Of a stretch of 64,000 nt of DNA, positions 804-44,542 are shown piece by piece; position 1 is the stretch's first letter; every line of letters begins with the position of its first letter. The translations under genes were made by a program, and so were the position numbers. The stretch is from Candidatus Pacearchaeota archaeon (GTDB lineage Archaea > Nanobdellota > Nanobdellia > Pacearchaeales > JAPDKA01). Under the pieces are notes generated by a model. It saw only the letters and a program-made list of their open reading frames with translations, was not told the DNA's origin and made no database searches. The stretch lies in contig JAWAZI010000001.1 of assembly GCA_038817835.1 (NCBI GenBank), positions 44,948 to 108,947 of the forward strand, given 5' to 3'.

Positions 804-1118
804 CTAAATAGCCCTTATTAATTTACAATCCCTATTTAATTCAACAAAATGGTTAGCTTTGCCTTCTCTATAATTTTTGCATTGATTTTCATATAAATTA
901 TCTATTTCTTCTCTAGGCCAACTTGCTATATCACAAACCCAATCATCAATATGCCATTCATATAAATCAGATAGACATTGACTAACAAGATTTAATTCTT
1001 TTTTTGCTTTTTCACAAAGTTCTATGCATTTCTCTATTGCTAAATCTTTATTTGTTTCCTTTTTACAACCAAAAAATAAAACAAAAAATAACAATATTAA
1101 TATTAAAAATTTTTTCAT
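804..1118 (-). CDS. small Cys-rich putative lipoprotein (lipobox-like FFGC)
   Basis: N-terminus MKKFLILILLFFVLFFGCKKE is a hydrophobic signal ending in a G-C lipobox-like cut site. The mature part has 7 further Cys. No family recognised. Confidence 0.6.
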   Translation of the reverse strand: MKKFLILILLFFVLFFGCKKETNKDLAIEKCIELCEKAKKELNLVSQCLSDLYEWHIDDWVCDIASWPREEIDNLYENQCKNYREGKANHFVELNRDCKLIRAI

Positions 1119-3288: not shown

Positions 3289-4176
3289 TTGATGAGTTTT
3301 AAAAAATTTAATAAAATATGTAATGATATAAAAAAAGTTAAAATTCAAGGTGCAGAAAATATTGCAAAAGCAGTTTTAGAGGCATTAAAAATAAAAAATG
3401 ATAAAAATGCAATAAAGAAATTAATCTCTTTAAGGCCAACAGAACCTGCAGTAAGAAACACAATCGCAAAAATTTTAGAAAAAATAGAAAAAGGTTTAAG
3501 TTGGGAAAAAGCTATAGAAGAAATGAAGGAATATTTTGAAATATCAGATAAAAAAATTTGTGAATATGGAGAAAGAATTATAGAAAATAATTCTATTATT
3601 TATACTCACTGTCATAGTTCTACAGTTGAAAAAACTTTAAAGTTTGCAAAAAAATTAGGAAAAAATTTTACTGTTTATATTACAGAAACAAGACCTTTAT
3701 TTCAAGGTAGAATCACTGCAGAAAATTTAGCAAAAGCAGGAATAAAAGTTGTTTTAGGGGTTGATAGCAATGCATTTAATTTTTTAAAAAAAGCAGATAT
3801 GTTTTTATTTGGAGCAGATGCTATAACAAGTGAAGGAGATATAATAAATAAAATTGGTACAGCTATGTTTACAGAAATTGCTCAAAAATTAAATGTTCCC
3901 TGTTATTGTTTAAGTTTGAGTATAAAATATGATCCTATAACTAGATATGGCTATCAAGAAGAAATAGAACAAAGACCAGCAAAAGAAATTTGGAATAAAA
4001 AAATTAAAAATTTAAAAATAGTAAATCCAGCTTTTGAGATTGTTAAAGCAAAAAATATTAATGCTATTATTAGTGAATATGGTATTTTAGCTCCAACAGC
4101 TTTTGTAGAAATAGCAAATAAAGAATTTGATATTAAAAAGTTAACATCTTTAAAAAATGGTTTATGGAGGATATAA
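3289..4176 (+). CDS. ribose-1,5-bisphosphate isomerase-like protein (eIF-2B alpha/beta/delta family)
   Basis: eIF-2B-family blocks (TETRPLFQGR, GADAITSEGDIINKIGT). Overlaps the RuBisCO gene immediately downstream by 20 nt. Functional call relies on that context (archaeal AMP/nucleoside salvage pathway). Confidence 0.75.
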   Translation: MMSFKKFNKICNDIKKVKIQGAENIAKAVLEALKIKNDKNAIKKLISLRPTEPAVRNTIAKILEKIEKGLSWEKAIEEMKEYFEISDKKICEYGERIIENNSIIYTHCHSSTVEKTLKFAKKLGKNFTVYITETRPLFQGRITAENLAKAGIKVVLGVDSNAFNFLKKADMFLFGADAITSEGDIINKIGTAMFTEIAQKLNVPCYCLSLSIKYDPITRYGYQEEIEQRPAKEIWNKKIKNLKIVNPAFEIVKAKNINAIISEYGILAPTAFVEIANKEFDIKKLTSLKNGLWRI

Positions 4177-5458
4177 ATTTATAGAGAAAAAATACAATCT
4201 AAGAGAAACAGATTTAATTGCTTTATTTTATGTTGATCCTGCCAAAGGGATTAGTTTCGAGAAAGCACTAGAAGCAATAGCATCTGAAAGCTCGGTTGGA
4301 ACATGGACAAAATTAAAAACAATACAAGAGAAAAAGCAAAACAAATTAAAAGCAAAAGTTTTTTGGTATGACAAAAAAAAGAAACTATGTAAAATTGCTT
4401 ATCCTATAGAACTTTTTGAATTATCTAATATACCACAATTGCTTAGTAGTGTTGCAGGAAATATTTTTGGTATTAAAGCAGTAGAAAATTTAAAACTTCT
4501 TGATATTAAGTTACCAAAAATTTATATTAAATCTTTTGAAGGACCTGAATTTGGAATTATTGGAGTTAGAAATTTATTTAATGTTAGAGATAGACCATTA
4601 CTTGGGAGTATAATAAAACCTAAATTAGGTTTAAATGCTAGTGAACATGCTAAATTAGCTTATAAAGTTTGGGTTGGAGGGGTAGATATAATTAAAGATG
4701 ATGAAAATTTAACTAATCAACCTTTCAATAAATTTGAGGAAAGAATTATTAGAAGCTTAGAAGCAAGAGATAAAGCTATAAATGAAACAGGAGAAAGGAA
4801 AGAATATATGCCAAATATAACAGGACCTATAGATTTAATGATGGAAAGAGCCGAATTTGTAAAAAATCAAGGAGGAAATTATGTTATGGTAGATGTTGTT
4901 ACTGTTGGATTTTCTGCTTTACAGTTTTTAAGAAAAATAACAGGAAAATTAAAACTTGTTATACATGCTCATAGAGCAATGCATGCAGCTTTTACTAGAA
5001 AAAAGAATCATGGTATAAGTATGCTTGTTTTAGCAAAACTTTTAAGGCTTGTTGGTGTTGATCAATTACATATTGGCACTATAGTAGGAAAGATGGAAGG
5101 TTCAAAAGAAGAAGTTTTAGAAATAAAAAAAGAAATTGAAAAAGAAATTATTGATGAAAATATTAAAGCTAAAGTTTTATCTCAATTTTGGTATAATATA
5201 AAACCTGTTTTTCCTGTTGCTTCAGGTGGATTACATCCAGGTGTAGTTGAAGATTTAGTTAGATATTTTGGTAAAGATATCATAATTCAAATGGGAGGCG
5301 GCATTCACGGACATCCAAAAGGAGCTTTATATGGGGCAATTGCCGCTAGACAAGCAATAGATGCTATAATGAAAGGAATAAAAATTAAAGAATATGCAAA
5401 AACACATAGGGAGCTTAGTATAGCTTTAAAAAAATGGGGAAAGAAAAGAGTAAAATAA
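4157..5458 (+). CDS. rbcL: ribulose-1,5-bisphosphate carboxylase large subunit, form III-like
   Basis: Diagnostic RuBisCO blocks: IIKPKLGL, GGVDIIKDDENL (carbamylated Lys context), HAHRAMHAAF, GGLHPG, MGGGIHGHP. No small subunit nearby. Confidence 0.95.
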   Translation: MVYGGYKFIEKKYNLRETDLIALFYVDPAKGISFEKALEAIASESSVGTWTKLKTIQEKKQNKLKAKVFWYDKKKKLCKIAYPIELFELSNIPQLLSSVAGNIFGIKAVENLKLLDIKLPKIYIKSFEGPEFGIIGVRNLFNVRDRPLLGSIIKPKLGLNASEHAKLAYKVWVGGVDIIKDDENLTNQPFNKFEERIIRSLEARDKAINETGERKEYMPNITGPIDLMMERAEFVKNQGGNYVMVDVVTVGFSALQFLRKITGKLKLVIHAHRAMHAAFTRKKNHGISMLVLAKLLRLVGVDQLHIGTIVGKMEGSKEEVLEIKKEIEKEIIDENIKAKVLSQFWYNIKPVFPVASGGLHPGVVEDLVRYFGKDIIIQMGGGIHGHPKGALYGAIAARQAIDAIMKGIKIKEYAKTHRELSIALKKWGKKRVK

Positions 5459-9346: not shown

Positions 9347-10848
9347 ATCTTAAGGAAAGATTAAAACAACCACAATGTCAAATTGGTAGTAAAGGTTTTT
9401 GTTGTAAAAATTGTTTATTTGGACCATGTTTATTAATTAATGAAAAAAGTAAAGGTGTTTGTGGAGCAAATCAAGAATTAGTTATAAGTAGAAATCTATT
9501 AAGATTTATAGCTAGTGGAACAGCAAATCATTGTGGTCATGCATTACATATGTTAAATGCAATAAATGAAAAATTTCCAATAAACTATATAGAGAATAAA
9601 TCTCCAAAATATTTGCAAAATTTATGGAAAAAACTTGGAATATTACCAAAAGTTGGTTATGAACATTTCAAAGATATAAGCGAATCTCTTCATATGAGTA
9701 GTTTTGGAGTTTCATCTGATTATAAGCAATTATTATTAAATTGTTTAAAATTAGGAATAATTGATGGTTATTATGGATTATATCTATCTACAGAACTAGA
9801 AGAAAGAATATATGGAAAACCAAAAGTTAGAGAAGCTTTTGTTGATTTGGGAGTTATAAACAAAGATAAAGTAAATATAGCTATTCATGGACACTTACCT
9901 ATATTTGCTGAAGCAATAACAAAAGAATCGAGAAAATATAAAGATATTAATATTATAGGCGTTTGCTGTAGTGGAGCTTTTTTATTATCAAAACTTGGAA
10001 TACCACAAGCAGCTAATATAATACTGCAAGAAGATGTTATTAACACTGGCTTAATTGAAGTTATGGCTGTTGATCTTCAATGTGTAATGCCATCCTTATC
10101 TGATTTAATTGAATGTTTTCATACAAAATTAATAACAACTAATGAATTAGCAATGATGAAAAATGCTATTCATATGTCAATAAAAACAATAAAAGATGCG
10201 AAAATAGTTGCAAAAAAAATAATAAAAATTGCAAGAAATAATAAAAAAAATAGAAATAAAATATATGAAAAAAAATTTGAAGAAATAAAAAATAGAAAAG
10301 TAAAAGCTGTAGTTGGTTTTGATGAAAGAATATGGAAAAATATTAATAATAGATTAAAAGATAAAAAAATTAAAGGAGTTTTAGCTTTTATTGGTTGCGT
10401 AAATGCTAGATGTAATGAAAAAGAATGGATAAAAATAATAAATGAACTAAAAAAAGATTATGTAATTTTAACTACAGGTTGTATGGCTTTTGAGCTAGCA
10501 AAAAATGGATTACTTGATGGGAAAAATATTTTTCATTTAGGAAGTTGTGTTAATAATTCAAGAATTGCAGAAATTTTTAAAAATATAGCAAATGCAAATA
10601 AAGTTAAAATTACAGATATGCCATTTCTTGTTTCTGCCCCAATGCCAATAACAGAAAAATGCTTTGCAATAGGTTTTTTCTTTGCTTCTTTGGGTGTAGA
10701 TGTACATTTTGGTTATAATACTATTTTGAGAAGTAATAAAAATATAAAAAATTTCTTGGAAAAATCATTAAAAAAATATTTTCACTCAAAAATATTTTTG
10801 GAGGAGAATGCATCAAATTTTAAAGAAAATTTAAAATTTAGTTTTTAA
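9343..10848 (+). CDS. cooS: compact CooS-like Ni-dependent carbon monoxide dehydrogenase homolog
   Basis: N-terminal CQIGSKGFCCKNCLFGPC...GVCGA matches the CooS D/B-cluster Cys pattern. The candidate C-cluster ligand contexts are IAIHGH, GVCCSG, LQCVMPS, IGCVNA, TTGCMA and GSCVNNSR. ATGA start/stop overlap with the OFOR beta gene. Only 501 aa. Confidence 0.8.
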   Translation: MNLKERLKQPQCQIGSKGFCCKNCLFGPCLLINEKSKGVCGANQELVISRNLLRFIASGTANHCGHALHMLNAINEKFPINYIENKSPKYLQNLWKKLGILPKVGYEHFKDISESLHMSSFGVSSDYKQLLLNCLKLGIIDGYYGLYLSTELEERIYGKPKVREAFVDLGVINKDKVNIAIHGHLPIFAEAITKESRKYKDINIIGVCCSGAFLLSKLGIPQAANIILQEDVINTGLIEVMAVDLQCVMPSLSDLIECFHTKLITTNELAMMKNAIHMSIKTIKDAKIVAKKIIKIARNNKKNRNKIYEKKFEEIKNRKVKAVVGFDERIWKNINNRLKDKKIKGVLAFIGCVNARCNEKEWIKIINELKKDYVILTTGCMAFELAKNGLLDGKNIFHLGSCVNNSRIAEIFKNIANANKVKITDMPFLVSAPMPITEKCFAIGFFFASLGVDVHFGYNTILRSNKNIKNFLEKSLKKYFHSKIFLEENASNFKENLKFSF

Positions 10849-11888
10849 TCTATCAATACAAGATTTTTACCTAATTGTTTTGCTTTATATAATAATTTAT
10901 CTGTTCTTTCTATAAAATGATTTAATTTCTCATTTTCTTTTATTTCTGCAACACCAAAGCTTGCAGTTATAAATCTTTTTGATTTTCTTGCATAATAAAA
11001 ATTTTCTATTTCTTGTCTTATAACTTCAGCAATTTCTTTTGCAATATCTAGTGATGCCTCTATAATTATTGCAAATTCTTCACCACCATATCTACATGCA
11101 TAATATTTTATATTATATTTTTCATACTTACTTAGAATATCTTTTACAGTTGATCCGATTTCCTTTAATAAATCATCTCCTGCGAGATGGCCATAAACAT
11201 CATTATAATTTTTAAAATAATCAATATCAAACATTATTAATGATATTTTCTTTTTTTCTTTTATTAATTCTTCTAATTTATCGATAAAAAATGATTTATT
11301 ATATAAGCCAGTTAAACTATCAATAATTGCTTTTTTACTTTCTTTTTCATATAGTTTTGCATAAAGTTTTGTAACTTTTTTTTCTTTTTCTTCTAATTCT
11401 TTTTTCATTTTTATTTTTTCTATTCCTATTGCTGTAAGATTTGCAATACTACTAACTAATCTTAAATCAAATTTACTAAATCCATCTAATTTTTGGAATA
11501 AGAATATTGCACCTATAATATCAGAATATAACATTAAACTTACAACAAGAATATTTTTTATATTAAATTTTCTTAACCTTTTATGTTTTTTTGTATTATT
11601 TATTATTATTGCTCCACCTTTTCTCATTACATCACTTGCAATTTCAAGTAATAAATCTCTAAAATCTTCTTTAATTTCTCTTGCTAAAATTTCATAATAT
11701 TTTATATTTAAATTATCATTATCTTTCAAAACAAAAAATACATATTTAGATTTTATATTAAATTTAATTAAATCGCTAACCTTTGAAAGAAATATATCTA
11801 AATTATCAGTACTTCCCATTATTTTATATAAATCTCTAAGTACTTTGATTTCTTTTTGACTATATTCAAAAATTTTTTCTTTATTCAT
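10845..11888 (-). CDS. GAF-domain diguanylate cyclase (GGDEF domain, GGEEF active site)
   Basis: C-terminal DSLTGLYNKSFF...MFDIDYFKNYNDVYGHLAGD...RYGGEEFAII...SFGVA is a canonical GGDEF domain (GGEEF at 11073-11087). The N-terminal ~150 aa is GAF-like. A coiled-coil linker joins them. Confidence 0.85.
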   Translation of the reverse strand: MNKEKIFEYSQKEIKVLRDLYKIMGSTDNLDIFLSKVSDLIKFNIKSKYVFFVLKDNDNLNIKYYEILAREIKEDFRDLLLEIASDVMRKGGAIIINNTKKHKRLRKFNIKNILVVSLMLYSDIIGAIFLFQKLDGFSKFDLRLVSSIANLTAIGIEKIKMKKELEEKEKKVTKLYAKLYEKESKKAIIDSLTGLYNKSFFIDKLEELIKEKKKISLIMFDIDYFKNYNDVYGHLAGDDLLKEIGSTVKDILSKYEKYNIKYYACRYGGEEFAIIIEASLDIAKEIAEVIRQEIENFYYARKSKRFITASFGVAEIKENEKLNHFIERTDKLLYKAKQLGKNLVLID

Positions 11889-12670: not shown

Positions 12671-13144
12671 TTAATATATTTTTAAAATCTTTCTTAGCAA
12701 AATACTAAAAATTAAACCAAAAAATATGTAACATAAAAGCCATCCTGCTCCATTCCCAATAATTGGGAGGTTATATTTCCAATCAATTATATTTCCAATT
12801 TTTGCTTCTGTATATGCATATCTTAAAAATAAAAAAACTAATATCAAAGGAAAAAATGTTATTAATGTAGGATTCAATGTCGATTTCATTAACTCTAAGT
12901 TAATTTCCATCATTTTTTTATTTATTTCTTTTAATTTTTCATTATTGTTTTCTTTTGCAGCTTTTTTTATTTCACTTTGCAATTCTTTTTGTTTTTCTTT
13001 TAATTTTTTTATCTTGTTTTGATCTGTAAATTTTTTATAAATTAATAGCTGTAAAAATGTTACAATAAAAGAAATTAAAATTATACTTATTAATCCCTTA
13101 GGTAAACCAAAAATACTAAAACCAATAAAATCTTTTAGTTCCAT
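12671..13144 (-). CDS. DUF106 / EMC3-TMCO1-like membrane protein (archaeal YidC/Oxa1-like insertase candidate)
   Basis: TM, then a long KE-rich coiled helix (KIKKLKEKQKELQSEIKK...MMEINLELMK), then two TMs. This is the typical DUF106 layout. Confidence 0.65.
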   Translation of the reverse strand: MELKDFIGFSIFGLPKGLISIILISFIVTFLQLLIYKKFTDQNKIKKLKEKQKELQSEIKKAAKENNNEKLKEINKKMMEINLELMKSTLNPTLITFFPLILVFLFLRYAYTEAKIGNIIDWKYNLPIIGNGAGWLLCYIFFGLIFSILLRKILKIY

Positions 13145-13173
13145 AATTTTTAAATAAATAATTTTTTAAAAAT

Positions 13174-13587
13174 TTACTTCTCCACCATTTTTCCAAATTC
13201 TTTTAGCATTGCTTTTCCTTTTTCTTCTTCTAGCAATTCCTTTAATTTTTTTCCTTTTCTTATTTTATTCATTGTTAAATATTCTAATATAGATGAACTA
13301 AAGAAAAATAAAACAATTATAAAAAAAGCAAGAATAGGACTTATTTTATAAAAAAATTCTATAATTTTAGCTAATCCAATTTGAAAAAGAAGAAATGGTA
13401 AAAAGATAGAAATTAAAAAAATAATAAAAGAAGGAAAATTAGAAATATCTTTTAATATTCTATAAAACCAAATAACAAAGCATATAAAAACAATACCACA
13501 AAGAGCTAAAAAATTTATATCATTTAAAGTAGTATTAAATAAAGCAACCAAAATTTTTTCAATTAATAATAATACATTTTGATCCAT
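13174..13587 (-). CDS. hypothetical integral membrane protein
   Basis: 137-aa ORF with about 3 hydrophobic segments and a KE-rich C-terminus. No family recognised. Confidence 0.5.
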   Translation of the reverse strand: MDQNVLLLIEKILVALFNTTLNDINFLALCGIVFICFVIWFYRILKDISNFPSFIIFLISIFLPFLLFQIGLAKIIEFFYKISPILAFFIIVLFFFSSSILEYLTMNKIRKGKKLKELLEEEKGKAMLKEFGKMVEK

Positions 13588-13640
13588 AAAAATATAATAA
13601 AAATAATATTAAAAAATTTTCAAGATTAAAATTTTATTTT

Positions 13641-14183
13641 TTATTTTTTTGTCAGCTGTTGGAATTGTTCTAATTTTTGCCATGCTTCCGCAGGACCCGT
13701 AGCTCCTCTTAATGCTTGTGCCCTTACTTTTCTTCTCATTGCCCATAAATAAGCTTTAGTAGAACCCCAAGAAAGCAATATGAAAATAACAAAAGCTGCA
13801 ATTATTTCAGAAACAACAGCAACTACACCCATTGTAGAAGCAAGACTAAGTAAAAATCTTGCTATTGCTATCAATCCCCTACTCAAAGCAATTAATAAGC
13901 TTAAACCAAAACTAATTATATAAACTGTTCTTCTAGAAAAAAATGGGGCTGTTAATGTTAAAATATCTACAAAAGCAAACATAAAAATTAAGAAAAGCAA
14001 AACAAAAATTATAACATGACCAACTGTTGTTAGTTCTGTAAATCCAAACAACCAATCGAAAGGTTTAATTGGTCCTACAGGATAATCAAGAACAGATTTG
14101 GGCTCTTGTGCAATAACAAAAGGTATAAAAATTAATGAAAGTAAAAAATAAATTAAAATAAAATTTTTAATATTTTTTTCCAT
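13641..14183 (-). CDS. hypothetical membrane protein with signal peptide
   Basis: 180 aa. N-terminal signal (FILIYFLLSLIFIPFVIAQE), about 4 TMs, Arg/Ala-rich tail. Its 3-prime end is locally more GC-rich than its neighbours. Confidence 0.55.
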   Translation of the reverse strand: MEKNIKNFILIYFLLSLIFIPFVIAQEPKSVLDYPVGPIKPFDWLFGFTELTTVGHVIIFVLLFLIFMFAFVDILTLTAPFFSRRTVYIISFGLSLLIALSRGLIAIARFLLSLASTMGVVAVVSEIIAAFVIFILLSWGSTKAYLWAMRRKVRAQALRGATGPAEAWQKLEQFQQLTKK

Positions 14184-14200
14184 AATAAGATAAAAAAATT

Positions 14201-14518
14201 TTATTTAAAAATTTTTTGATTTGTTTTTACTCCAAAACTTTTCAATAAAAATAAGATAAAGATTATAACTAAAATTATTGATAAAGCTATAGCAAATCCT
14301 CCTGAGATGAATTGTAAAATTTTTATTGCTAAAGCCCTTATATAACCTAATTGTAAACCTATTAAAGTAATTATTAAAGCAATAATAGCTGCCATCCATC
14401 TTCCGAATATTTTTATTCTAATAAATACATCAAAAATAATTACAAATATTATAATAATCAAAATAGCTATAAGTATATTTTGAGTTAAATTTTCTCCAAG
14501 AATCTCTGCTAAAACCAT
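14201..14518 (-). CDS. hypothetical small integral membrane protein
   Basis: 105 aa, three hydrophobic helices. No family recognised. Confidence 0.5.
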   Translation of the reverse strand: MVLAEILGENLTQNILIAILIIIIFVIIFDVFIRIKIFGRWMAAIIALIITLIGLQLGYIRALAIKILQFISGGFAIALSIILVIIFILFLLKSFGVKTNQKIFK

Positions 14519-27574: not shown

Positions 27575-27645
27575 AGGGGCCATAGTTTAATGGTAGAACG
27601 GCCGGCTCCAGACCGGCTGGCGGGGGTTCGAATCCCTCTGGCCCC
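27575..27645 (+). tRNA. tRNA-Trp (anticodon CCA)
   Basis: Hand-folded cloverleaf. Acceptor GGGGCCA/TGGCCCC. Anticodon arm GCCGG-CTCCAGA-CCGGC. T-arm GGGGG-TTCGAAT-CCCTC. GC-rich island in AT-rich DNA. Confidence 0.9.
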
Positions 27646-27666
27646 AATTAAAATTCAAAATTTAAA

Positions 27667-27993
27667 ATGAAAAAACAAAAAGAATTGAAAATACTATTAG
27701 AAAATTTTACATTAATCCAAAAATCAATGACAGAATTAATAATAGCATTCAAAAGACTTGAAAAAAGATTTGATAAATTTTTAAAATTAGTTGAAGAAGC
27801 TGCTAAAGAAAAGATTGAAAAAGAAAGCATAAAAAAAGAAATACCTAAAGAAAAAGAAAAAATTAGTGATAAAGGATTGAGTGAGAAAATAGAGACTATT
27901 TTAGAACAAAATAAGGCAATGGCAGAAGCTTTATTGTTATTAGAGAAATTAATAAAAGAAAAAATTGAGGAAAAAAAGGAAGAAGAAATTTAA
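27667..27993 (+). CDS. hypothetical coiled-coil protein
   Basis: 108-aa KE-rich heptad-like ORF, first of three same-strand genes ending in lgt. Confidence 0.45.
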   Translation: MKKQKELKILLENFTLIQKSMTELIIAFKRLEKRFDKFLKLVEEAAKEKIEKESIKKEIPKEKEKISDKGLSEKIETILEQNKAMAEALLLLEKLIKEKIEEKKEEEI

Positions 27994-28570
27994 TAAAATG
28001 AATTTTTTTGAAGAATTTTTTGATTTACTTGTGAATATTGAAGCTAAAAATTTAATAAAAAAAGAAAAACCAAAGATTGAAGAAATTAAAGAAAAAAAGA
28101 AAGAAGAGGAAAAAATAGAAAAACTAGAAGATGAATCATTAAAAAAAATTAAAAGAGAACCATTAATAATTAGAAAATTTCCCCCAACTTTTGATATTGG
28201 AAAAATAACAGCAAAAGAACTTATCCCTAAAAAAGAATTCATTCCAAGCTTAGAATTAATAAAAGAAATACCAGTAGAAAGAAAAATTGAAAGATTTAAT
28301 TTTGGAAAAATAAATGATATTGTATATAATACTGATGTTCAACAAGTAAAAATTATTAATGATGAAAAAATTATTGTAATTTATAAAAATGGTAAAAGTG
28401 AAGAAAAAGATATAATAATGAATAAAGATGAAATTCTTGAATTATTAAATAAAATATCAAAAATTACAAAAATACCCCTTGATAAAGAGTTTGGTTGTTA
28501 TTTTGAAGATTTTTTTATAGAAGCAAAATTTAATGAAAAAATTTTAGTAAATATAAGAAGGATAATATGA
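27965..28570 (+). CDS. hypothetical protein; C-terminal half weakly resembles the N-terminal domain of GspE/VirB11/FlaI-type secretion ATPases
   Basis: Likely start MNFFEEFF at 27998. Weak pattern VKIINDEKIIVIYKNGK...NKDEILELLNKISKITKIPLD. ATGA overlap with lgt. Confidence 0.5.
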   Translation: MRKKRKKKFNKMNFFEEFFDLLVNIEAKNLIKKEKPKIEEIKEKKKEEEKIEKLEDESLKKIKREPLIIRKFPPTFDIGKITAKELIPKKEFIPSLELIKEIPVERKIERFNFGKINDIVYNTDVQQVKIINDEKIIVIYKNGKSEEKDIIMNKDEILELLNKISKITKIPLDKEFGCYFEDFFIEAKFNEKILVNIRRII

Positions 28571-29316
28571 TTGAGTATAAACCAATAAATATTCTTTTTA
28601 GTATTGGAAAATTAAATATTTATTCTTGGGGGACTATTGTAGCTTTAGCATTTTTAATTGTTTATATATTATGTATAAGAAAAATAAAAAAAGAAAAATT
28701 GGAAGAAGGAATAATTAATGATTTATTTATTATAACTATTATTTTTGGTTTTTTGGGAGCAAGATTTTTATATGCAATTGAAAATGGTTTTGATAATTTT
28801 TATTCAGTATGGCAAGGTGGCTTAAGCATATATGGTGGTTTACTGCTTGGTTTTTTTTCTATATTTATGTATTTAAAAATAAAAAAAATTTCTTTAAGAT
28901 ATATAGAAATAATTACATTATTTTTGCCTATAGGTTTAGCAATTGGTAGATTAGGATGTTTTATAAATTGGGATGATTATGGTATACCTACAAATTTGCC
29001 ATGGGCAATTAAAGTTGGTGATGATGCTCCAAGACATCCAAGTCAAATTTATGAAATAATTGCAAATTTAGGAATTTTTTTAATTTTATTTTTTATAGAT
29101 AAAAAAGATAGAAAAAAAATTAAAAAAAATAAAGAGGATGAATTAAAATTAACAAAATGGTTTTTATTTTTATATCCAATTACACGGCTATTTCTTGATT
29201 TTTTACGTGACTCGGCAAGATATGTTGGCCTTACTTTAGCTCAGTGGATATCTATAGCAATATTAGCTTGTTTATTTTTATTAATCTTAATAAAAAAATT
29301 TAAAAATATTAAATAA
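28567..29316 (+). CDS. lgt: prolipoprotein diacylglyceryl transferase homolog
   Basis: Blocks match E. coli Lgt recalled from memory: FSIGKLNIYSWG, VWQGGLSIYGGLLLG, GLAIGRLGCFINWDDYG, PRHPSQIYE. About 7 TMs. Confidence 0.85.
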   Translation: MIEYKPINILFSIGKLNIYSWGTIVALAFLIVYILCIRKIKKEKLEEGIINDLFIITIIFGFLGARFLYAIENGFDNFYSVWQGGLSIYGGLLLGFFSIFMYLKIKKISLRYIEIITLFLPIGLAIGRLGCFINWDDYGIPTNLPWAIKVGDDAPRHPSQIYEIIANLGIFLILFFIDKKDRKKIKKNKEDELKLTKWFLFLYPITRLFLDFLRDSARYVGLTLAQWISIAILACLFLLILIKKFKNIK

Positions 29317-29378: not shown

Positions 29379-29603
29379 ATGAAAAAATTCAAAGTTAAAA
29401 TAGATAAAGAAAAATGTATCGGTTGTGGGAGTTGTGTAAGTACTTGTGACAATTTTTATATAAAAAATGGGAAAGCAAATGTAAAAAAAGAAATTATAAA
29501 TGAAGAGGAATACGACAAAAATCTAGAAGCTGCAGAATTGTGTCCAACCAATGCTATAACAATTGAAGAAATTAAAAAAGAAATTAAAAAACATAAAAAA
29601 TAA
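29379..29603 (+). CDS. small ferredoxin (single Fe-S cluster type)
   Basis: CIGCGSCVSTC ... CP motif in a 74-aa protein. Confidence 0.8.
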   Translation: MKKFKVKIDKEKCIGCGSCVSTCDNFYIKNGKANVKKEIINEEEYDKNLEAAELCPTNAITIEEIKKEIKKHKK

Positions 29604-29652: not shown

Positions 29653-30648
29653 ATGGAAAATAAAAAATTTGATGAAATTAAAGAAGCTTTATTTAAAGCA
29701 CAATATAGAATTTTTTCAAATTCAGCTGTCCAAATATGTTCATGGACAAAGAAAGCTATAAGAAATGAAGGATTTTGCTATAAACAAAAATTTTATGGTA
29801 TACCAACTCATGCGTGTATGGAATTTACACCATTTATTTTTTGCCAAGAAAATTGTATTCATTGTTGGAGACCAAAAGAATTATTATTAACTAATCTAAA
29901 TTTAATCAAAAAATTGATAAAAAATAATCAAGATCCAGAAGAAATAATAAAAAATTTAATTGAAGAAAGAAGAAAATTATTAATAGGTTTTATGGGAAAT
30001 AAAAAAGTTAATAAAAAAAAATTAGAGCAAGCTTTTATTCCTGTTCATTTTGCTATAAGTTTAGTAGGAGATCCATTACTTTATCCAAAGCTTGGAGAAA
30101 TGATAGAATTATTAAAAACAAAATATAAAGCAAAAAGTATTTTTGTTGTTACAAATTGCCAGGAGCCAAAAGCATTAAAAAAATTAATACAAAAAAATCA
30201 ATTGCCAACCCAGTTATATTTAAGTATAACTGCAACAAATAAAAATGATTATTTAAAATTAAAAAGGCCTATTTATAAAGATGCATGGAAAAGATTTATT
30301 GAATTTTTAAAAATAGCTAAAAAAGCTAAATGTAGAAAAGTTATTAGATATACTTTAGTTAAGGGCATCAATGATAAAGAAAAAAATATAAAAGAATTAA
30401 TAAAACTTGTAAATTTAGCTAATCCTGATTTTTTAGAGATAAAAGCTTATATGTTTTTAGGCTATAGTACATTAAGATTAAAAAAAGAAAATATGCCAGA
30501 ATTTAATTACGTAAAAAATTTTTCTTTAAATTTACTAAAGAATCTAAAAAATTTTAAATATGAAAATTCTGATAAAGCAAGTAGAATTGTTTTATTAAAA
30601 AATAAAAATAGTAACTATAATACAATAATTGAGGAATATAAAAAATAA
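29653..30648 (+). CDS. taw1: tRNA 4-demethylwyosine synthase (Taw1/TYW1 radical SAM)
   Basis: AVQICSWTKKAIRNEGFCYKQKFYGI, then CQENCIHCWRP (radical SAM CxxxCxxC with the TYW1-type WR), then LVGDPLLYP. Confidence 0.8.
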   Translation: MENKKFDEIKEALFKAQYRIFSNSAVQICSWTKKAIRNEGFCYKQKFYGIPTHACMEFTPFIFCQENCIHCWRPKELLLTNLNLIKKLIKNNQDPEEIIKNLIEERRKLLIGFMGNKKVNKKKLEQAFIPVHFAISLVGDPLLYPKLGEMIELLKTKYKAKSIFVVTNCQEPKALKKLIQKNQLPTQLYLSITATNKNDYLKLKRPIYKDAWKRFIEFLKIAKKAKCRKVIRYTLVKGINDKEKNIKELIKLVNLANPDFLEIKAYMFLGYSTLRLKKENMPEFNYVKNFSLNLLKNLKNFKYENSDKASRIVLLKNKNSNYNTIIEEYKK

Positions 30649-30932: not shown

Positions 30933-31928
30933 ATGCTAAAAAACAAGATAAAAATAAAAATAAATCGTCTAGTTATACCAGTATTTTCTTTTATTTTAAT
31001 TTTAATAATTTTATTTAGATTTGTTGAGATAAAAGGTTTTATTGAGATAATAACAAAAATAAAATGGAAGTGGTTTCTTCTAGCTTTAATTTTTCAATTT
31101 ATTTCAATTTTTTTTTCTAGTTTACTTAAATATGAATTAATTGAAACATTAAAAGAAAAAATTGGATTATGGTTTTTAATTAAACTTAATACTGCTATGA
31201 TATTTATTGATATAATAATCCCAAGTCAGAGTATATCATCATTTATTTTTCTTTTTAAAATTTTAGGAAAAAAAGGCGTAGAAAAAGGAAAAAGAACAAT
31301 ATTGATAGCAAATTCTTTTTTAATAAATTATATAGTCACTTTTACTCTTTTAATTGTTGCAATACTTTATAGCATTGAATTGAAATATAATATAATAAAA
31401 ACTTTTATTTTAATTTCAATATCATTAATTTTGATTTTATTTTTGATTTTATTTTTAATTATATTAAAAATTGAAAAATCTAAAAAAATAGTTTTAATTT
31501 TTGCCAAACCAACAAAAATTTTTAATAGAATCATAAAAAATTTTAATGAAAGAATTACAGATTTAATAGAAAGATATTACACAGAAAGAAAAAAGTATAA
31601 AATAAATTATTCTAGACTTATAATAATAAATTTCTTCGAATATTTTTTTAGAATATTAAGCTTATTTTTTGTTATTTTATGCTTAAATTATAATTTAAGT
31701 ATAGATAAAGTAATAATTGTTTATTTATTTGCAAGTTTAATTGCATTTATTAGTTATATAAAAATTGGTTTCTTCGAAGCAGGATTAACTTTAGCCTTAT
31801 TAGCTTTAGGAATAAATTATAATCTTTCTCTTGCAACAACAATTGTTTTTAGAATAATAAATTTCTGGATACCTTTAATTTTAGGTTATATAGCTACAAG
31901 AAAAATTTTGAAAGATGTGGATAGTTAA
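30933..31928 (+). CDS. polytopic membrane protein (UPF0104 / flippase-like, LPG-synthase-TM-like family candidate)
   Basis: 331 aa, about 8 TMs. The N-terminal layout is reminiscent of UPF0104, but the family assignment is weak. Confidence 0.45.
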   Translation: MLKNKIKIKINRLVIPVFSFILILIILFRFVEIKGFIEIITKIKWKWFLLALIFQFISIFFSSLLKYELIETLKEKIGLWFLIKLNTAMIFIDIIIPSQSISSFIFLFKILGKKGVEKGKRTILIANSFLINYIVTFTLLIVAILYSIELKYNIIKTFILISISLILILFLILFLIILKIEKSKKIVLIFAKPTKIFNRIIKNFNERITDLIERYYTERKKYKINYSRLIIINFFEYFFRILSLFFVILCLNYNLSIDKVIIVYLFASLIAFISYIKIGFFEAGLTLALLALGINYNLSLATTIVFRIINFWIPLILGYIATRKILKDVDS

Positions 31929-42474: not shown

Positions 42475-42681
42475 ATGAGAAAAGCAATATTTTTTTTATT
42501 TTTTTTATTTATAATTATAGCAGTTATCTTTGTAGGTTGCAAAAAAGCAGAAACCGATTGGGACAAAGATTTTGAGGAGATTGAAAAAGATTTACAAAAT
42601 TTAGAAGTAAATATAAGCGAATCAGAAATAACTACAGATACATCATTTGAGGAAATTGATAATTTAATCTCTCAAACTTAA
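42475..42681 (+). CDS. small acidic putative lipoprotein (lipobox-like FVGC)
   Basis: MRKAIFFLFFLFIIIAVIFVGCKKAE is a signal ending in G-C, followed by KK as in the 804-1118 ORF. Confidence 0.5.
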   Translation: MRKAIFFLFFLFIIIAVIFVGCKKAETDWDKDFEEIEKDLQNLEVNISESEITTDTSFEEIDNLISQT

Positions 42682-43828: not shown

Positions 43829-44392
43829 TTATTTTTTAAATTTTTTATTTATTTTTCTCAAACAAAAAAAGGTAAAAAATAAAACAAAAGAAAAAACCGA
43901 AGATAAAATATAAGATAAAATAAAAAATTTTTGTGGAAAAATTTTTATTAATAAATTTGAAGAAGGAAAAGAATAATTTCTTACAAAAAATATCTTATGG
44001 AATATCTCAAAACAAAAATCAAAATTTAATAAAGAAAAAAGAAAAAATAAAATAAAAATTATTAATAAAATAAAAAATAATTTTTCATTTATTTCTGCAA
44101 GAAAAAATAAAATTAAAGAAATAAATAAGCATAAAAAATAAAAAATTCTCAAAGAATTTAAAAAATTCTTTACATCAATCAAATGAGAAATTTCTTCTTT
44201 TGTTAATCCAAATTTTGAAAGATAATCACAATCATAATTACTACTAATACAAAAAAATATATTTTTTAATAGTTCATCATCCTTCTCGGATATAAATTTA
44301 ACAAAAATATATGAAAAATTAAAAGTTGTTAATAAAATATAAGGAGTTAATAAAATAACAAAAAATAAGAAAATAGTATAAATATACGAAAA
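43829..44392 (-). CDS. polytopic membrane protein, possible DUF1461/Lit-like; start codon unresolved
   Basis: The track ORF (to 44509) translates through the tRNA-Ile gene, so its first ~39 codons are spurious. Downstream of the tRNA there is no in-frame ATG/GTG/TTG before the first TM. FGLTKEEISHLIDVKNF resembles the E..H..DVK block I associate with DUF1461. Confidence 0.45.
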   Translation of the reverse strand, partial: FSYIYTIFLFFVILLTPYILLTTFNFSYIFVKFISEKDDELLKNIFFCISSNYDCDYLSKFGLTKEEISHLIDVKNFLNSLRIFYFLCLFISLILFFLAEINEKLFFILLIIFILFFLFSLLNFDFCFEIFHKIFFVRNYSFPSSNLLIKIFPQKFFILSYILSSVFSFVLFFTFFCLRKINKKFKK

Positions 44393-44393
44393 G

Positions 44394-44502
44394 TGGGCCC
44401 TGGCGGATTTGAACCGCCGACCTCCGGTTAGCCTAGATTCCCGCCAAATATGGCGAGTGGTCATATAAGACCGGCGCTCTAACCTGGCTGAGCTAAGGGC
44501 CC
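44394..44502 (-). tRNA. tRNA-Ile (anticodon TAT) with 34-nt intron at canonical 37/38 position (intron 44430-44463)
   Basis: Acceptor GGGCCCT/AGGGCCC. D-arm GCTC-AGCCAGGTTA-GAGC. Anticodon stem CCGGT/ACCGG. Loop CTTATA^intron^A. Hand-folded BHB: 4-bp helix CUUA/UAGG flanked by 3-nt bulges UA^U and CU^A. Intron hairpin CTCGCC-ATATTT-GGCGGG. Confidence 0.75.
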
Positions 44503-44542
44503 TCCTCATTTATTTATAATTTTATATTTTTTAATTTTTTCC

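What the first reader, a model, noticed from the sequence alone, without database searches (positions are those of the whole stretch)
28567..29316. Bacterial-type prolipoprotein diacylglyceryl transferase (Lgt) inside an archaeal chromosome
The 249-aa ORF matches the Lgt signature blocks nearly residue for residue, compared from memory with E. coli Lgt. FSIGKLNIYSWG matches FSIGPVALHWYG. VWQGGLSIYGGLLLG matches VWDGGMSFHGGLIG. GLAIGRLGCFINWDDYG matches GLGAGRLGNFINGELWG. PRHPSQIYE matches PRHPSQLYE. It sits between unmistakably archaeal genes (PheRS alpha/beta and tRNA-Trp upstream, Taw1 downstream). It is also translationally coupled to the preceding gene by an ATGA overlap, so it is not an obvious assembly chimera. 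Archaea are known to carry lipobox proteins. The canonical Lgt/LspA/Lnt enzymes are generally reported as missing from them, and archaeal lipids are ether-linked, so the lipid donor would have to differ. The window also holds two short ORFs whose signal peptides end in a lipobox-like G-C followed by KK. Two positions differ from E. coli: the His of HGG is Tyr, and the Asn of GNF is Cys. No lspA-like gene is visible in the window.
Basis: partly seen in the sequence, partly recalled or inferred. Interest (0 to 1): 0.78.

Follow-up and report, generated by a model that had tools for sequence, protein, structure and literature searches.

The report
Bacterial-type Lgt gene in a Pacearchaeota genome
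A tiny symbiotic archaeon (Pacearchaeota) stably carries a bacterial-family enzyme (Lgt) that lipid-anchors secreted proteins, and a second bacterial lipoprotein enzyme (Lit) nearby; recent papers say archaea lack Lgt, so this raises the question of which membrane lipids these cells use.

Summary
ORF 28567-29316(+) is a full-length Lgt-family protein: Pfam PF01790 scores 174 bits, the AlphaFold model has pLDDT 94, and its only significant PDB match is E. coli Lgt. It sits in a clearly archaeal Pacearchaeota chromosome with typical composition. The same gene order occurs in four independent assemblies at 56-96% identity, so it is neither a chimera nor a recent transfer.

It belongs to a divergent Lgt subtype (E. 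coli numbering Y26W, H103Y, N146C, E151D, E243D). It keeps R143, R239, G154, Y235 and R246, and scores below the TIGR00544 equivalog cut-off. Candidate Phyla Radiation (CPR) bacteria carry the same subtype. Other DPANN archaea carry canonical Lgt, so Lgt entered archaea at least twice.

Both lipobox ORFs are real, and one belongs to a large lipoprotein family. I found no LspA or AliA gene in the window.

Most likely it lipidates lipobox cysteines. The lipid donor is unknown; Lit chemistry needs ester lipids.

NCBI already names these proteins, but papers from 2018-2026 state that Lgt is absent from archaea. I rate it a new member of a known kind, of moderate to high interest.

The parts
28567..29316 (+). 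Lgt-family membrane enzyme, 249 aa, N146C/W26 subtype. Key residues in window numbering: W21 (=Y26), G22, G84-G85, Y89 (=H103), G127-R128 (=R143), C131 (=N146), N134, D136 (=E151), G139 (=G154), R156-H157-P-S-Q, Y162-E163, Y203 (=Y235), R207 (=R239), D211 (=E243), R214 (=R246).
   Evidence: PF01790 at 174 bits. TIGR00544 at 103 bits, below the 118.9 cut-off. AlphaFold model pLDDT 94.4 with 7 TM helices plus an N-terminal hairpin. Foldseek match to 5azb at E=5.7e-10, TM-score 0.73, the only significant hit. Residue map.
27998..28570 (+). Upstream ORF of 190 aa, translationally coupled to lgt by the ATGA overlap. It has a charged, disordered N-terminal half and a C-terminal domain (residues ~100-190) with the fold of the N-terminal domain of secretion/pilus ATPases (CpaF, VirB11, FlaI). 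There is no ATPase domain. Its link to Lgt is unknown.
   Evidence: No Pfam or NCBIfam hit. Conserved next to lgt in L009 (44% identity) and in L008 and L025. Only 3 homologues found. AlphaFold pLDDT ~88 for residues 100-190. Foldseek hits 8rkd, 2pt7 and 4ii7 at E~1e-4, rmsd ~2 A over ~96 residues.
27667..27993 (+). First gene of the same-strand cluster, a 108-aa helical/charged protein of unknown function. It is conserved in synteny.
   Evidence: 44% identity to the corresponding ORF in L009. No Pfam hit.
29379..29603 (+). Small 4Fe-4S ferredoxin, a conserved downstream neighbour. It probably serves TYW1 rather than Lgt.
   Evidence: PF13370 and PF13459. Synteny.
29653..30648 (+). TYW1/Taw1 radical-SAM tRNA wyosine enzyme, an archaeal/eukaryotic marker and conserved neighbour.
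   Evidence: TIGR03972 at 333.8 bits, above the cut-off.
30933..31928 (+). Flippase-like membrane protein with the LPG_synthase_TM domain (the MprF transmembrane domain family). It is a conserved neighbour. A role in handling lipid head-groups is possible but untested.
   Evidence: PF03706 at 89.7 bits. TIGR00374 at 76.6 bits. Synteny.
43829..44392 (-). Lit-like membrane protein (lipoprotein intramolecular transacylase family). The catalytic His (HLIDVKN), the second His and the invariant Phe (FHKIFF) are conserved. There is no canonical start codon after the upstream tRNA; the open frame extends to the ATG at 44509.
   Evidence: PF07314 at 40.2 bits against a cut-off of 24. phmmer to B. cereus Lit 7b0o at E=8e-6 with His85, His153, Phe157, Val89 and Lys90 aligned (residue roles from PMC8275575). 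TIGR01906 at 37 bits, below its cut-off. DNA read.
44394..44502 (-). tRNA-Ile(UAU) with a 34-nt intron at the canonical position, an archaeal hallmark. It lies inside the open frame that leads into the Lit-like gene.
   Evidence: Rfam tRNA at 61.5 bits. aragorn -i. The same arrangement occurs in L024.
804..1118 (-). Candidate substrate: a 104-aa secreted Cys-rich protein with signal peptide and lipobox (LFFGC, Cys18). It belongs to a large family in which most members carry a lipobox at the same place.
   Evidence: Regex scan. 422 representative homologues at E<=1e-3. At least 88 of the best 150 have a signal peptide plus lipobox Cys.
42475..42681 (+). Candidate substrate: a 68-aa protein with signal peptide and lipobox (IFVGC, Cys22).
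   Evidence: Regex scan. Only weak N-terminal matches to bacterial lipoprotein models.
27576..27646 (+). tRNA-Trp(CCA), immediately upstream of the cluster.
   Evidence: ARAGORN and Rfam.

Best explanation
The ORF is a working member of the bacterial Lgt family that a Pacearchaeota (DPANN) lineage acquired long ago from bacteria and has since inherited vertically.

Shown:
- It is a 7-TM Lgt-fold protein.
- It keeps the catalytic arginine pair (R143, R239) and G154, Y235, R246, H196 and E202 (E. coli numbering).
- It belongs to the natural N146C / H103Y / E151D subtype, which is also the Lgt found in CPR bacteria.
- The same genome encodes lipobox-bearing secreted proteins and a Lit-like enzyme with an intact catalytic dyad.

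Inferred mechanism: after Sec export, the enzyme binds a phosphoglycerol lipid in its central cavity. It then transfers the lipid's glyceryl moiety with both chains onto the thiol of the lipobox cysteine, forming a thioether and releasing glycerol phosphate, as E. coli Lgt does.

Inferred further, with less confidence: the donor is an ester-linked, bacterial-type phosphatidylglycerol scavenged from a host. Three points lead there. Pacearchaeota lack lipid synthesis genes. The active site is the same as in CPR relatives. The co-encoded Lit chemistry (sn-2 acyl shift to the Cys amino group) is impossible on ether lipids.
For: Family and fold: PF01790 at 174 bits. AlphaFold pLDDT 94.4 and pTM 0.90. 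Foldseek gives 5azb as the only hit, probability 1.00.

Residues: R143, R239, G154, Y235, R246, G99, G142, G145, H196 and E202 are all conserved across the clade at 50-96% identity. N146C and E151D are described in distant bacterial Lgts. The N146C Lgt of Leptospira interrogans restores cell morphology in an E. coli Lgt-depletion strain but viability only poorly. H103Y is normal in Firmicutes.

Archaeal host and vertical descent. Native GC and codon usage, and dN/dS 0.37 against the 96% relative. The core clade has 96/100 NJ bootstrap support.

CPR relatives sit in bacterial contexts next to SecA, SecDF and trigger factor.

Substrates: two lipobox ORFs, one from a family in which at least 88 of 150 representatives keep the lipobox.

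Lit-like gene with His/His/Phe conserved. Lgt and Lit also lie 3 kb apart in another archaeal contig, L013.

Pacearchaeota lack lipid synthesis genes, and bacterial hosts have been proposed for them.
Against: - Three residues that E. coli Lgt cannot do without are changed (Y26W, H103Y, N146C). The M. smegmatis paralogue with Y26H and N146C is presumed weakly active.
- The protein is below the TIGR00544 equivalog cut-off.
- No signal peptidase II was found, and Lit needs a free N-terminal cysteine. Only 64 kb of the genome was visible.
- The Lit-like gene has no canonical start codon.
- Lit-like genes also occur beside AliA in another DPANN contig, L015. Lit presence therefore does not by itself prove ester lipids.
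- dN/dS rests on 15 differences only.
- There are no activity or lipid data.
Confidence: 0.68

Rival explanations
1. The enzyme is the same, but the donor is archaeal. The acquired Lgt uses archaetidylglycerol (ether-linked, glycerol-1-phosphate backbone) from an archaeal host. It makes diphytanylglyceryl-cysteine, as AliA does in Haloferax. In effect it replaces or supplements AliA.
For: Archaeal lipoproteins studied so far carry thioether-linked archaeol. An archaeal lipid supply to Pacearchaeota from Hydrothermarchaeales has been proposed. No AliA/AliB (PF01889) gene was seen in the window, which would fit displacement.
Against: The active-site residues are shared with CPR bacterial homologues, so there is no visible adaptation to the opposite glycerol stereochemistry or to ether chains. 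In E. coli Lgt, R143 and the sn-2 contacts read the ester oxygens. A catalytically intact Lit-like enzyme would have no ester to move. Absence of AliA from 64 kb says little.
Confidence: 0.2
2. It is an Lgt-like paralogue with another job, or a weak or inactive one. The N146C/W26 subtype may not lipidate prolipoproteins here. It may act on a different acceptor or donor, or be a relic.
For: Y26, H103 and N146 are each essential in E. coli, and all three are replaced here. It is below the equivalog cut-off. MSMEG_5408, with Y26H and N146C, is presumed to have low activity. No Lsp was found.
Against: The clade keeps every catalytic Arg, Gly and Tyr over 50-96% identity and keeps its genomic position, which argues for selection. 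The same subtype is the Lgt seen in CPR bacteria beside protein-export genes. The N146C Lgt of Leptospira, a lipoprotein-rich bacterium, partly complements E. coli. Lipobox substrates are present.
Confidence: 0.1
3. It is an assembly or binning artefact: a bacterial gene mis-joined into an archaeal contig.
For: Lgt is otherwise a bacterial hallmark, and the source is a metagenome-assembled genome.
Against: The ATGA overlap joins it to an archaeal-clade-specific gene. The same neighbourhood occurs in four independent assemblies from NCBI, JGI and Logan. GC is 0.20-0.22, like the flanks, and GC3 is 0.096 against 0.113 for the window. The upstream ORF is seen on six contigs of up to 118.6 kb. Other archaeal contigs with RNAP, Cdc6 or Rad50 also carry Lgt.
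Confidence: 0.02

Closest known systems
E. coli Lgt (phosphatidylglycerol:prolipoprotein diacylglyceryl transferase, PDB 5AZB/5AZC; PF01790, TIGR00544)
   Same: The fold matches: 7 TM helices, an N-terminal hairpin arm and a central cavity. It has the signature GR-LG-F-N---G, the PRHPSQ-YE motif, R143, R239, G154, Y235 and R246, and the same length class.
   Different: About 23% identity. Y26W, H103Y, N146C, E151D and E243D differ. The periplasmic head domain is about half the size (23 against 47 residues between positions 151 and 197). It is below the TIGR00544 cut-off. The host is an archaeon.
N146C-type Lgt of CPR/Patescibacteria, Leptospira interrogans and M. smegmatis MSMEG_5408
   Same: It shares the N146C substitution with all three. 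It shares the wider pattern (Tyr at 103, Asp or Cys at 151, Trp or Tyr at 26) with the CPR sequences aligned here. It groups with the CPR sequences and away from canonical Lgt in 100/100 NJ bootstraps. The Leptospira and M. smegmatis sequences were not aligned here; their substitutions are taken from PMC13251419.
   Different: The window clade keeps the canonical PRHPSQ-YE block, which the CPR sequences have lost. It forms its own 96%-supported clade restricted to Pacearchaeota-like contigs. The exact sister group is unresolved.
AliA/AliB (PF01889, arCOG02177), the archaeal lipoprotein lipidation enzymes of Haloferax volcanii
   Same: The presumed role is the same: attaching a membrane lipid to the lipobox cysteine. 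AliA also has two conserved arginines that were compared with R143 and R239.
   Different: They are not detectably homologous at the family level. HHpred gives 29% probability between arCOG02177 and PF01790. The window protein is a plain PF01790 member, and no PF01889 gene was seen in the window.
Canonical Lgt in other DPANN archaea (P0022 'archaeon' GCA_021107835.1; P0053 Nanoarchaeota)
   Same: These are also Lgt genes inside archaeal contigs. P0022 is on a contig with RpoH, B'', B' and A', with a Lit gene 3 kb away.
   Different: They have canonical Y26, H103, N146 and E151 and pass TIGR00544 (189 and 204 bits). They are phylogenetically separate, so they represent an independent acquisition.
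Lit of Bacillus cereus / Enterococcus faecalis (PF07314, PDB 7B0O), for the second gene at 43829-44392
   Same: A 4-TM protein with conserved His85, His153, Phe157, Val89 and Lys90.
   Different: Trp162 is Ser. It is below the TIGR01906 cut-off. It has no canonical start codon, and its frame runs through a tRNA gene. The host is archaeal.

Membership tests
Lgt family (Pfam PF01790) | Full-length profile match above the curated gathering score | tested here: met
   174.4 bits against 24.9, E=3e-51, profile positions 2-238 of 240.
Lgt equivalog (NCBIfam TIGR00544, i.e. same function as characterised Lgt) | Score at or above the curated equivalog cut-off | tested here: not met
   103.0 bits against 118.9. 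The canonical archaeal homologues P0022 and P0053 do pass, at 189 and 204 bits.
Lgt | Seven-TM fold with N-terminal beta-hairpin arm, as in PDB 5AZB | tested here: met
   AlphaFold pLDDT 94.4, with helices at 20-42, 47-73, 88-105, 111-134, 159-182, 194-213 and 224-248 and strands at 9-13 and 16-19. Foldseek match to 5azb at E=5.7e-10, TM 0.73; the next hit has E>1.
Lgt | Catalytic/lipid-binding arginines R143 and R239, plus G154, Y235 and R246 | tested here: met
   R128, R207, G139, Y203 and R214 are invariant or nearly invariant in the 49-sequence alignment. Their roles are taken from PMC4728403 and PMC13251419.
Lgt | Y26, H103 and N146, each essential in E. coli Lgt | tested here: not met
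   These are W21, Y89 and C131. All three changes occur naturally in bacterial Lgts: H103Y in Firmicutes, N146C in Leptospira and in CPR bacteria. This lowers the claim of equivalence to E. coli Lgt but not family membership.
Lgt | Transfers diacylglyceryl from phosphatidylglycerol to the lipobox cysteine | not testable with these tools
   Needs an enzyme assay or complementation.
Lgt pathway | Lipobox-bearing prolipoprotein substrates encoded in the same genome | tested here: met
   804..1118(-) with FFGC and 42475..42681(+) with FVGC. The first belongs to a family in which at least 88 of 150 representatives have a lipobox at the equivalent site. A proteome-wide count is not possible from 64 kb.
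Lgt pathway | Signal peptidase II (LspA, PF01252) in the same genome | tested here: inconclusive
   None in the window or in any archaeal locus fetched (Pfam on all ORFs with 3 or more TM segments; phmmer with E. coli LspA). The method does find LspA next to lgt in bacterial locus L002. The rest of the genome could not be scanned.
Lit (PF07314), for ORF 43829-44392 | Profile match above the gathering score, and the catalytic His85/His153 dyad with Phe157 | tested here: met
   40.2 bits against 24. Alignment to 7b0o shows H, H and F conserved (residue roles).
Lit (PF07314), for ORF 43829-44392 | An intact, translatable gene | tested here: inconclusive
   There is no ATG, GTG or TTG between the tRNA-Ile 3' end and codon ~97. 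The frame is open from an ATG 5' of the tRNA in both the window and L024.
AliA/AliB (PF01889) | Profile or sequence match to the archaeal lipidation enzymes | tested here: not met
   No PF01889 hit for Lgt or any multi-TM ORF of the window. phmmer with the L015 AliA finds only itself.

The most novel reading that the evidence does not exclude
Some DPANN archaea (Pacearchaeota and relatives) run a bacterial-style lipoprotein pathway, with Lgt followed by Lit. That chemistry requires ester-linked diacylglycerol. Their membranes would then contain bacterial-type phosphatidylglycerol taken from bacterial hosts. This would be a natural breach of the archaeal/bacterial lipid divide, visible from the genome, with bacterial Lgt having displaced the native AliA system in these lineages.
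Probability: 0.25. Interest if true: 0.85.

Novelty: new member of a known kind. Interest (0 to 1): 0.6.

Why it matters
Reviews and primary papers up to 2026 state that no archaeal genome encodes Lgt. That supposed absence motivated the search that found AliA/AliB.

This window shows Lgt-family genes stably resident in DPANN archaea, from at least two acquisitions. In two cases (this window and L013) a Lit homologue lies in the same stretch of DNA.

Three consequences follow:
- It corrects the stated distribution of Lgt.
- It offers a natural test of whether Lgt can use archaeal lipids.
- It gives a genomic handle on which lipids, and hence which hosts, uncultured Pacearchaeota depend on.

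It also matters for using Lgt as a strictly bacterial marker or drug target.

Tried and rejected
- **Genome and metagenome scans.** Scans with the single protein used over-specific peptide patterns. They returned only distant bacterial loci (L001-L007, L021-L022). An alignment query would have been better.
- **Supplementary tables.** Those of PMC12462473 (arCOG02177 presence per genome) are not held, so I could not test whether Lgt and AliA are mutually exclusive.
- **Window edges.** A look-up of the left-edge protein found no record. The right-edge look-up added only ribosomal and housekeeping genes.
- **LspA and AliA.** phmmer against all ORFs of the window and of all loci was negative for archaeal DNA.
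- **Lipobox counting.** The short related loci were too small to say anything.
- **dN/dS.** The comparison with the 96% relative has only 15 differences, so it is weak.
- **Sister group.** The NJ tree does not resolve the sister group of the core clade: support is 12/100 or less for wider groupings, and the DPANN+CPR group seen in the first tree is 0/100 as an exact set. I therefore do not name CPR as the proven donor.
- **Recent-transfer idea.** Rejected on composition and synteny.
- **Upstream 190-aa ORF as a missing signal peptidase.** Rejected. It has no TM segment, and its folded domain looks like a secretion-ATPase N-domain.
Full report
**1. Observation**

The ORF at 28567-29316(+) is real and encodes 249 aa. 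Its ATG overlaps the stop codon of the preceding ORF in the sequence ATGA. It matches Pfam PF01790 (LGT) over the whole profile at 174.4 bits against a cut-off of 24.9, E=3e-51. Its only PDB relative by sequence is E. coli Lgt, 5azb, at E=7.5e-12.

They are also reproduced in a MAFFT alignment with E. coli lgt taken from NC_000913.3.

An AlphaFold2 model built on 49 homologues is confident (pLDDT 94.4, pTM 0.90). It has seven TM helices and an N-terminal beta-hairpin. Foldseek against the PDB returns E. coli Lgt as the only significant match (E=5.7e-10, probability 1.00, TM 0.73); everything else has E>1.

**2. The host is an archaeon and the gene belongs there**

The window carries several archaeal markers:
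- a ribosomal-protein operon with L32e, L19e, S4e, RNase P p29, SUI1 and SecY;
- EF-1alpha, Kae1, TYW1 (TIGR03972, 334 bits), archaeal-type PheRS and form III RuBisCO;
- an intron-containing tRNA.

The upstream ORF is 100% identical to NCBI protein QXQ30_01990 of a Candidatus Pacearchaeota MAG, seen on contigs of up to 118.6 kb. The Lgt itself is 96% identical to a protein that NCBI already names 'prolipoprotein diacylglyceryl transferase [Candidatus Pacearchaeota archaeon]'. Pacearchaeota lie in Archaea; Nanobdellati, i.e. DPANN.

GC content across the gene (0.20-0.22) equals that of the flanks. GC3 is 0.096 against 0.113 for the window. Codon usage ranks 34th of 52 genes by distance from the window mean.

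The order PheRS-beta/alpha(-) | two small ORFs | LGT | ferredoxin | TYW1 | LPG_synthase_TM recurs in four other assemblies:
- L008, an NCBI MAG, 96% identity;
- L009, a 154-kb JGI contig that also carries RadA and RPA, 56% identity;
- L010, a Logan assembly, carrying the same protein as L009 (56% identity);
- L025, another NCBI Pacearchaeota MAG, 56% identity.

Chimerism and recent transfer are therefore excluded. The gene has been inherited vertically within this clade.

**3. What kind of Lgt**

Mapped onto E. coli numbering, the whole clade (window plus P0001-P0010, 50-96% identity) keeps these residues: G27, G98, G99, G104, G142, R143, G145, N149, G154, R195-H196-P-S-Q, Y201, E202, Y235, R239 and R246. 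It has W for Y26, Y for H103, C for N146, D for E151 and D for E243.

R143 and R239 are the proposed catalytic and lipid-binding pair. Y26, H103, R143, N146, G154 and R239 are the six residues found absolutely required in E. coli. Three of the six are therefore changed, and the protein falls below the TIGR00544 equivalog cut-off (103 against 118.9 bits).

These changes are not archaeal inventions. PMC13251419 reports the following:
- H103 is Y in Firmicutes.
- The N146C Lgt of Leptospira interrogans restores morphology and partly restores viability in E. coli.
- M. smegmatis MSMEG_5408, with Y26H and N146C, is presumed weakly active.

The same W/Y/C/D pattern occurs in CPR bacteria. P0017 (Portnoybacteria) and P0016 lie in plainly bacterial contexts, the latter between SecA/SecDF and trigger factor.

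The periplasmic head domain is short: 23 residues between positions 151 and 197, against 47 in E. coli.

**4. Phylogeny (neighbour joining only)**

The window clade is monophyletic in 96 of 100 bootstraps. A split that puts the window, P0013 (Nanoarchaeia; its contig carries Cdc6/Orc1 and Rad50/Mre11) and CPR P0017 on one side, and E. coli, P0022 and P0053 on the other, is found in 100 of 100 bootstraps.

P0022 sits on a contig with archaeal RNA polymerase subunits RpoH, B'', B' and A'. P0053 is labelled Nanoarchaeota. Both have canonical Y26, H103, N146 and E151 and pass TIGR00544 at 189 and 204 bits. DPANN archaea therefore acquired Lgt at least twice. The exact sister group of the window clade is unresolved.

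**5. The rest of the pathway**

*Substrates.* Two ORFs have a signal peptide that ends in a lipobox: 804-1118(-) with ...LFFGC-KK and 42475-42681(+) with ...IFVGC-KK. The first belongs to a large family of ~100-140-aa Cys-rich secreted proteins. The family has 422 representatives at E<=1e-3 and shares the motif WVCDVAHxPRxxxDNxxENQC. At least 88 of the best 150 carry a lipobox cysteine at the end of the hydrophobic region. That count is conservative, because the regex misses clear cases. The lipobox in this ORF is therefore a conserved feature, not chance.

*A second enzyme.* ORF 43829-44392(-) matches PF07314 (Lit, lipoprotein intramolecular transacylase) at 40.2 bits against a cut-off of 24. 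It also matches B. cereus Lit (7b0o) at E=8e-6. The catalytic His85 (HLIDVKN), His153 and the invariant Phe157 (FHKIFF) are conserved. Another archaeal contig, L013, has canonical Lgt and Lit 3 kb apart. A third, L015, has Lit together with AliA_AliB (PF01889).

*Missing pieces.* I found no LspA and no AliA in the window or in any archaeal locus fetched. The same phmmer search does find LspA next to lgt in bacterial locus L002. This absence covers only 64 kb and is not evidence about the whole genome.

**6. Mechanism**

The best-supported reading is that the protein does what Lgt does. It would move the glyceryl-lipid moiety of a phosphoglycerol lipid onto the lipobox cysteine of exported proteins (confidence about 0.7).

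The donor lipid is the open question. Four points favour an ester-linked bacterial-type donor:
- The active site is shared with CPR homologues, and I found no archaeal-specific change in it.
- E. coli Lgt reads the ester oxygens through R143 and the sn-2 contacts.
- Lit catalyses an sn-2 acyl shift to the N-terminal amino group, which cannot happen on ether chains.
- Pacearchaeota lack lipid synthesis genes, and bacterial hosts have been proposed for them.

PlsC and PlsY also occur sporadically in DPANN.

Three points count against it:
- Archaeal lipoproteins studied so far carry archaeol.
- Archaeal hosts have also been proposed for Pacearchaeota.
- Lit-like genes also accompany AliA.

I put the ester-donor version at roughly 0.25-0.4 and the archaeal-donor version at about 0.2.

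**7. Comparison with the literature and novelty**

Three papers make explicit statements:
[quoted passage not shown] No paper in the held library links 'diacylglyceryl transferase' with Pacearchaeota, Woesearchaeota or Nanoarchaeota.

Against that, NCBI's pipeline already names these proteins in several DPANN MAGs. The sequences are therefore public and annotated. What is new is the recognition that they are truly archaeal-resident, conserved in synteny, of two origins, and accompanied by Lit. This is a new member of a known enzyme family in an unexpected domain, not a new kind of system.

**8. Side findings**

- The ORF coupled to lgt has a C-terminal domain with the fold of the N-terminal domain of secretion/pilus ATPases and no ATPase part.
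- The Lit-like gene has no canonical start after the upstream intron-containing tRNA-Ile(UAU). In both the window and a 45%-identical relative (L024), an ATG just 5' of the tRNA opens a frame that runs through both exons and the intron into the Lit-like protein. The introns are 34 and 37 nt, so their lengths differ by three. I have no explanation for this.

Noticed in passing
window 43829-44509 (-): A Lit-family (PF07314) gene with its catalytic His/His/Phe intact lies 15 kb from lgt. It has no ATG, GTG or TTG between the upstream tRNA and codon ~97. The only open frame starts at an ATG 5' of the tRNA gene and reads through it, giving an Arg-rich N-tail. The same layout occurs in L024, where the protein is 45% identical and the intron is 3 nt longer, so the frame is preserved.
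   Followed up: partly
window 44394-44502 (-): tRNA-Ile(UAU) with a 34-nt intron at the canonical position. The default ARAGORN run missed it; Rfam and aragorn -i found it. The order MetRS - tRNA-Ile - Lit-like is conserved in L024.
   Followed up: yes
window 27998-28570 (+): The ORF translationally coupled to lgt has a C-terminal domain with the fold of the N-terminal domain of CpaF/VirB11/FlaI secretion ATPases (rmsd ~2 A over ~96 residues) but no ATPase domain. It has only three homologues, all next to this Lgt clade.
   Followed up: partly
L013 6789-7334 and 10001-10750: Another DPANN contig, carrying archaeal RNAP subunits, has a canonical Lgt (which passes TIGR00544) and a Lit gene (56.5 bits) 3 kb apart. 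A GILT/thioredoxin-like protein lies just downstream of lgt.
   Followed up: partly
L015 1480-2256, 10001-10630, 524-1447: An archaeal contig (Topo VI, Alba, S17e, tRNA-intron endonuclease) has AliA_AliB (PF01889), a Lit-family gene and a textbook lipobox protein (IFLAGC). Lit-like genes therefore accompany both lipidation systems in DPANN.
   Followed up: no
window 804-1118 (-): A small Cys-rich lipobox protein from a large uncharacterised family (422 representative clusters; motif WVCDVAHxPRxxxDNxxENQC) with no Pfam model. Most members are predicted lipoproteins.
   Followed up: partly
window 10845-11888 (-): A GAF-GGDEF diguanylate cyclase (PF00990, 126 bits). This is a bacterial-type second-messenger enzyme in an archaeal chromosome and may be another bacterial acquisition.
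   Followed up: no
window 12671-14518 (-): A run of four small membrane proteins. One is EMC3/TMCO1/YidC-like (PF01956, 47 bits). The other three (137, 180 and 105 aa) have no family hit in Pfam or NCBIfam.
   Followed up: partly
window 3292-5458 (+): A ribose-1,5-bisphosphate isomerase-like gene (IF-2B family) overlaps a form III RuBisCO large subunit. This is the nucleotide-salvage pair typical of DPANN archaea.
   Followed up: no
window 1152-3212 (-): A 686-aa membrane-anchored or secreted protein with a Kazal-type protease-inhibitor domain. Its exact sequence is not on record in the assembly collection.
   Followed up: no
L002 1844-2410 and 2419-3165: In a bacterial MAG from horse faeces, lspA lies immediately upstream of lgt. 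This served as a positive control showing that the LspA search works.
   Followed up: yes
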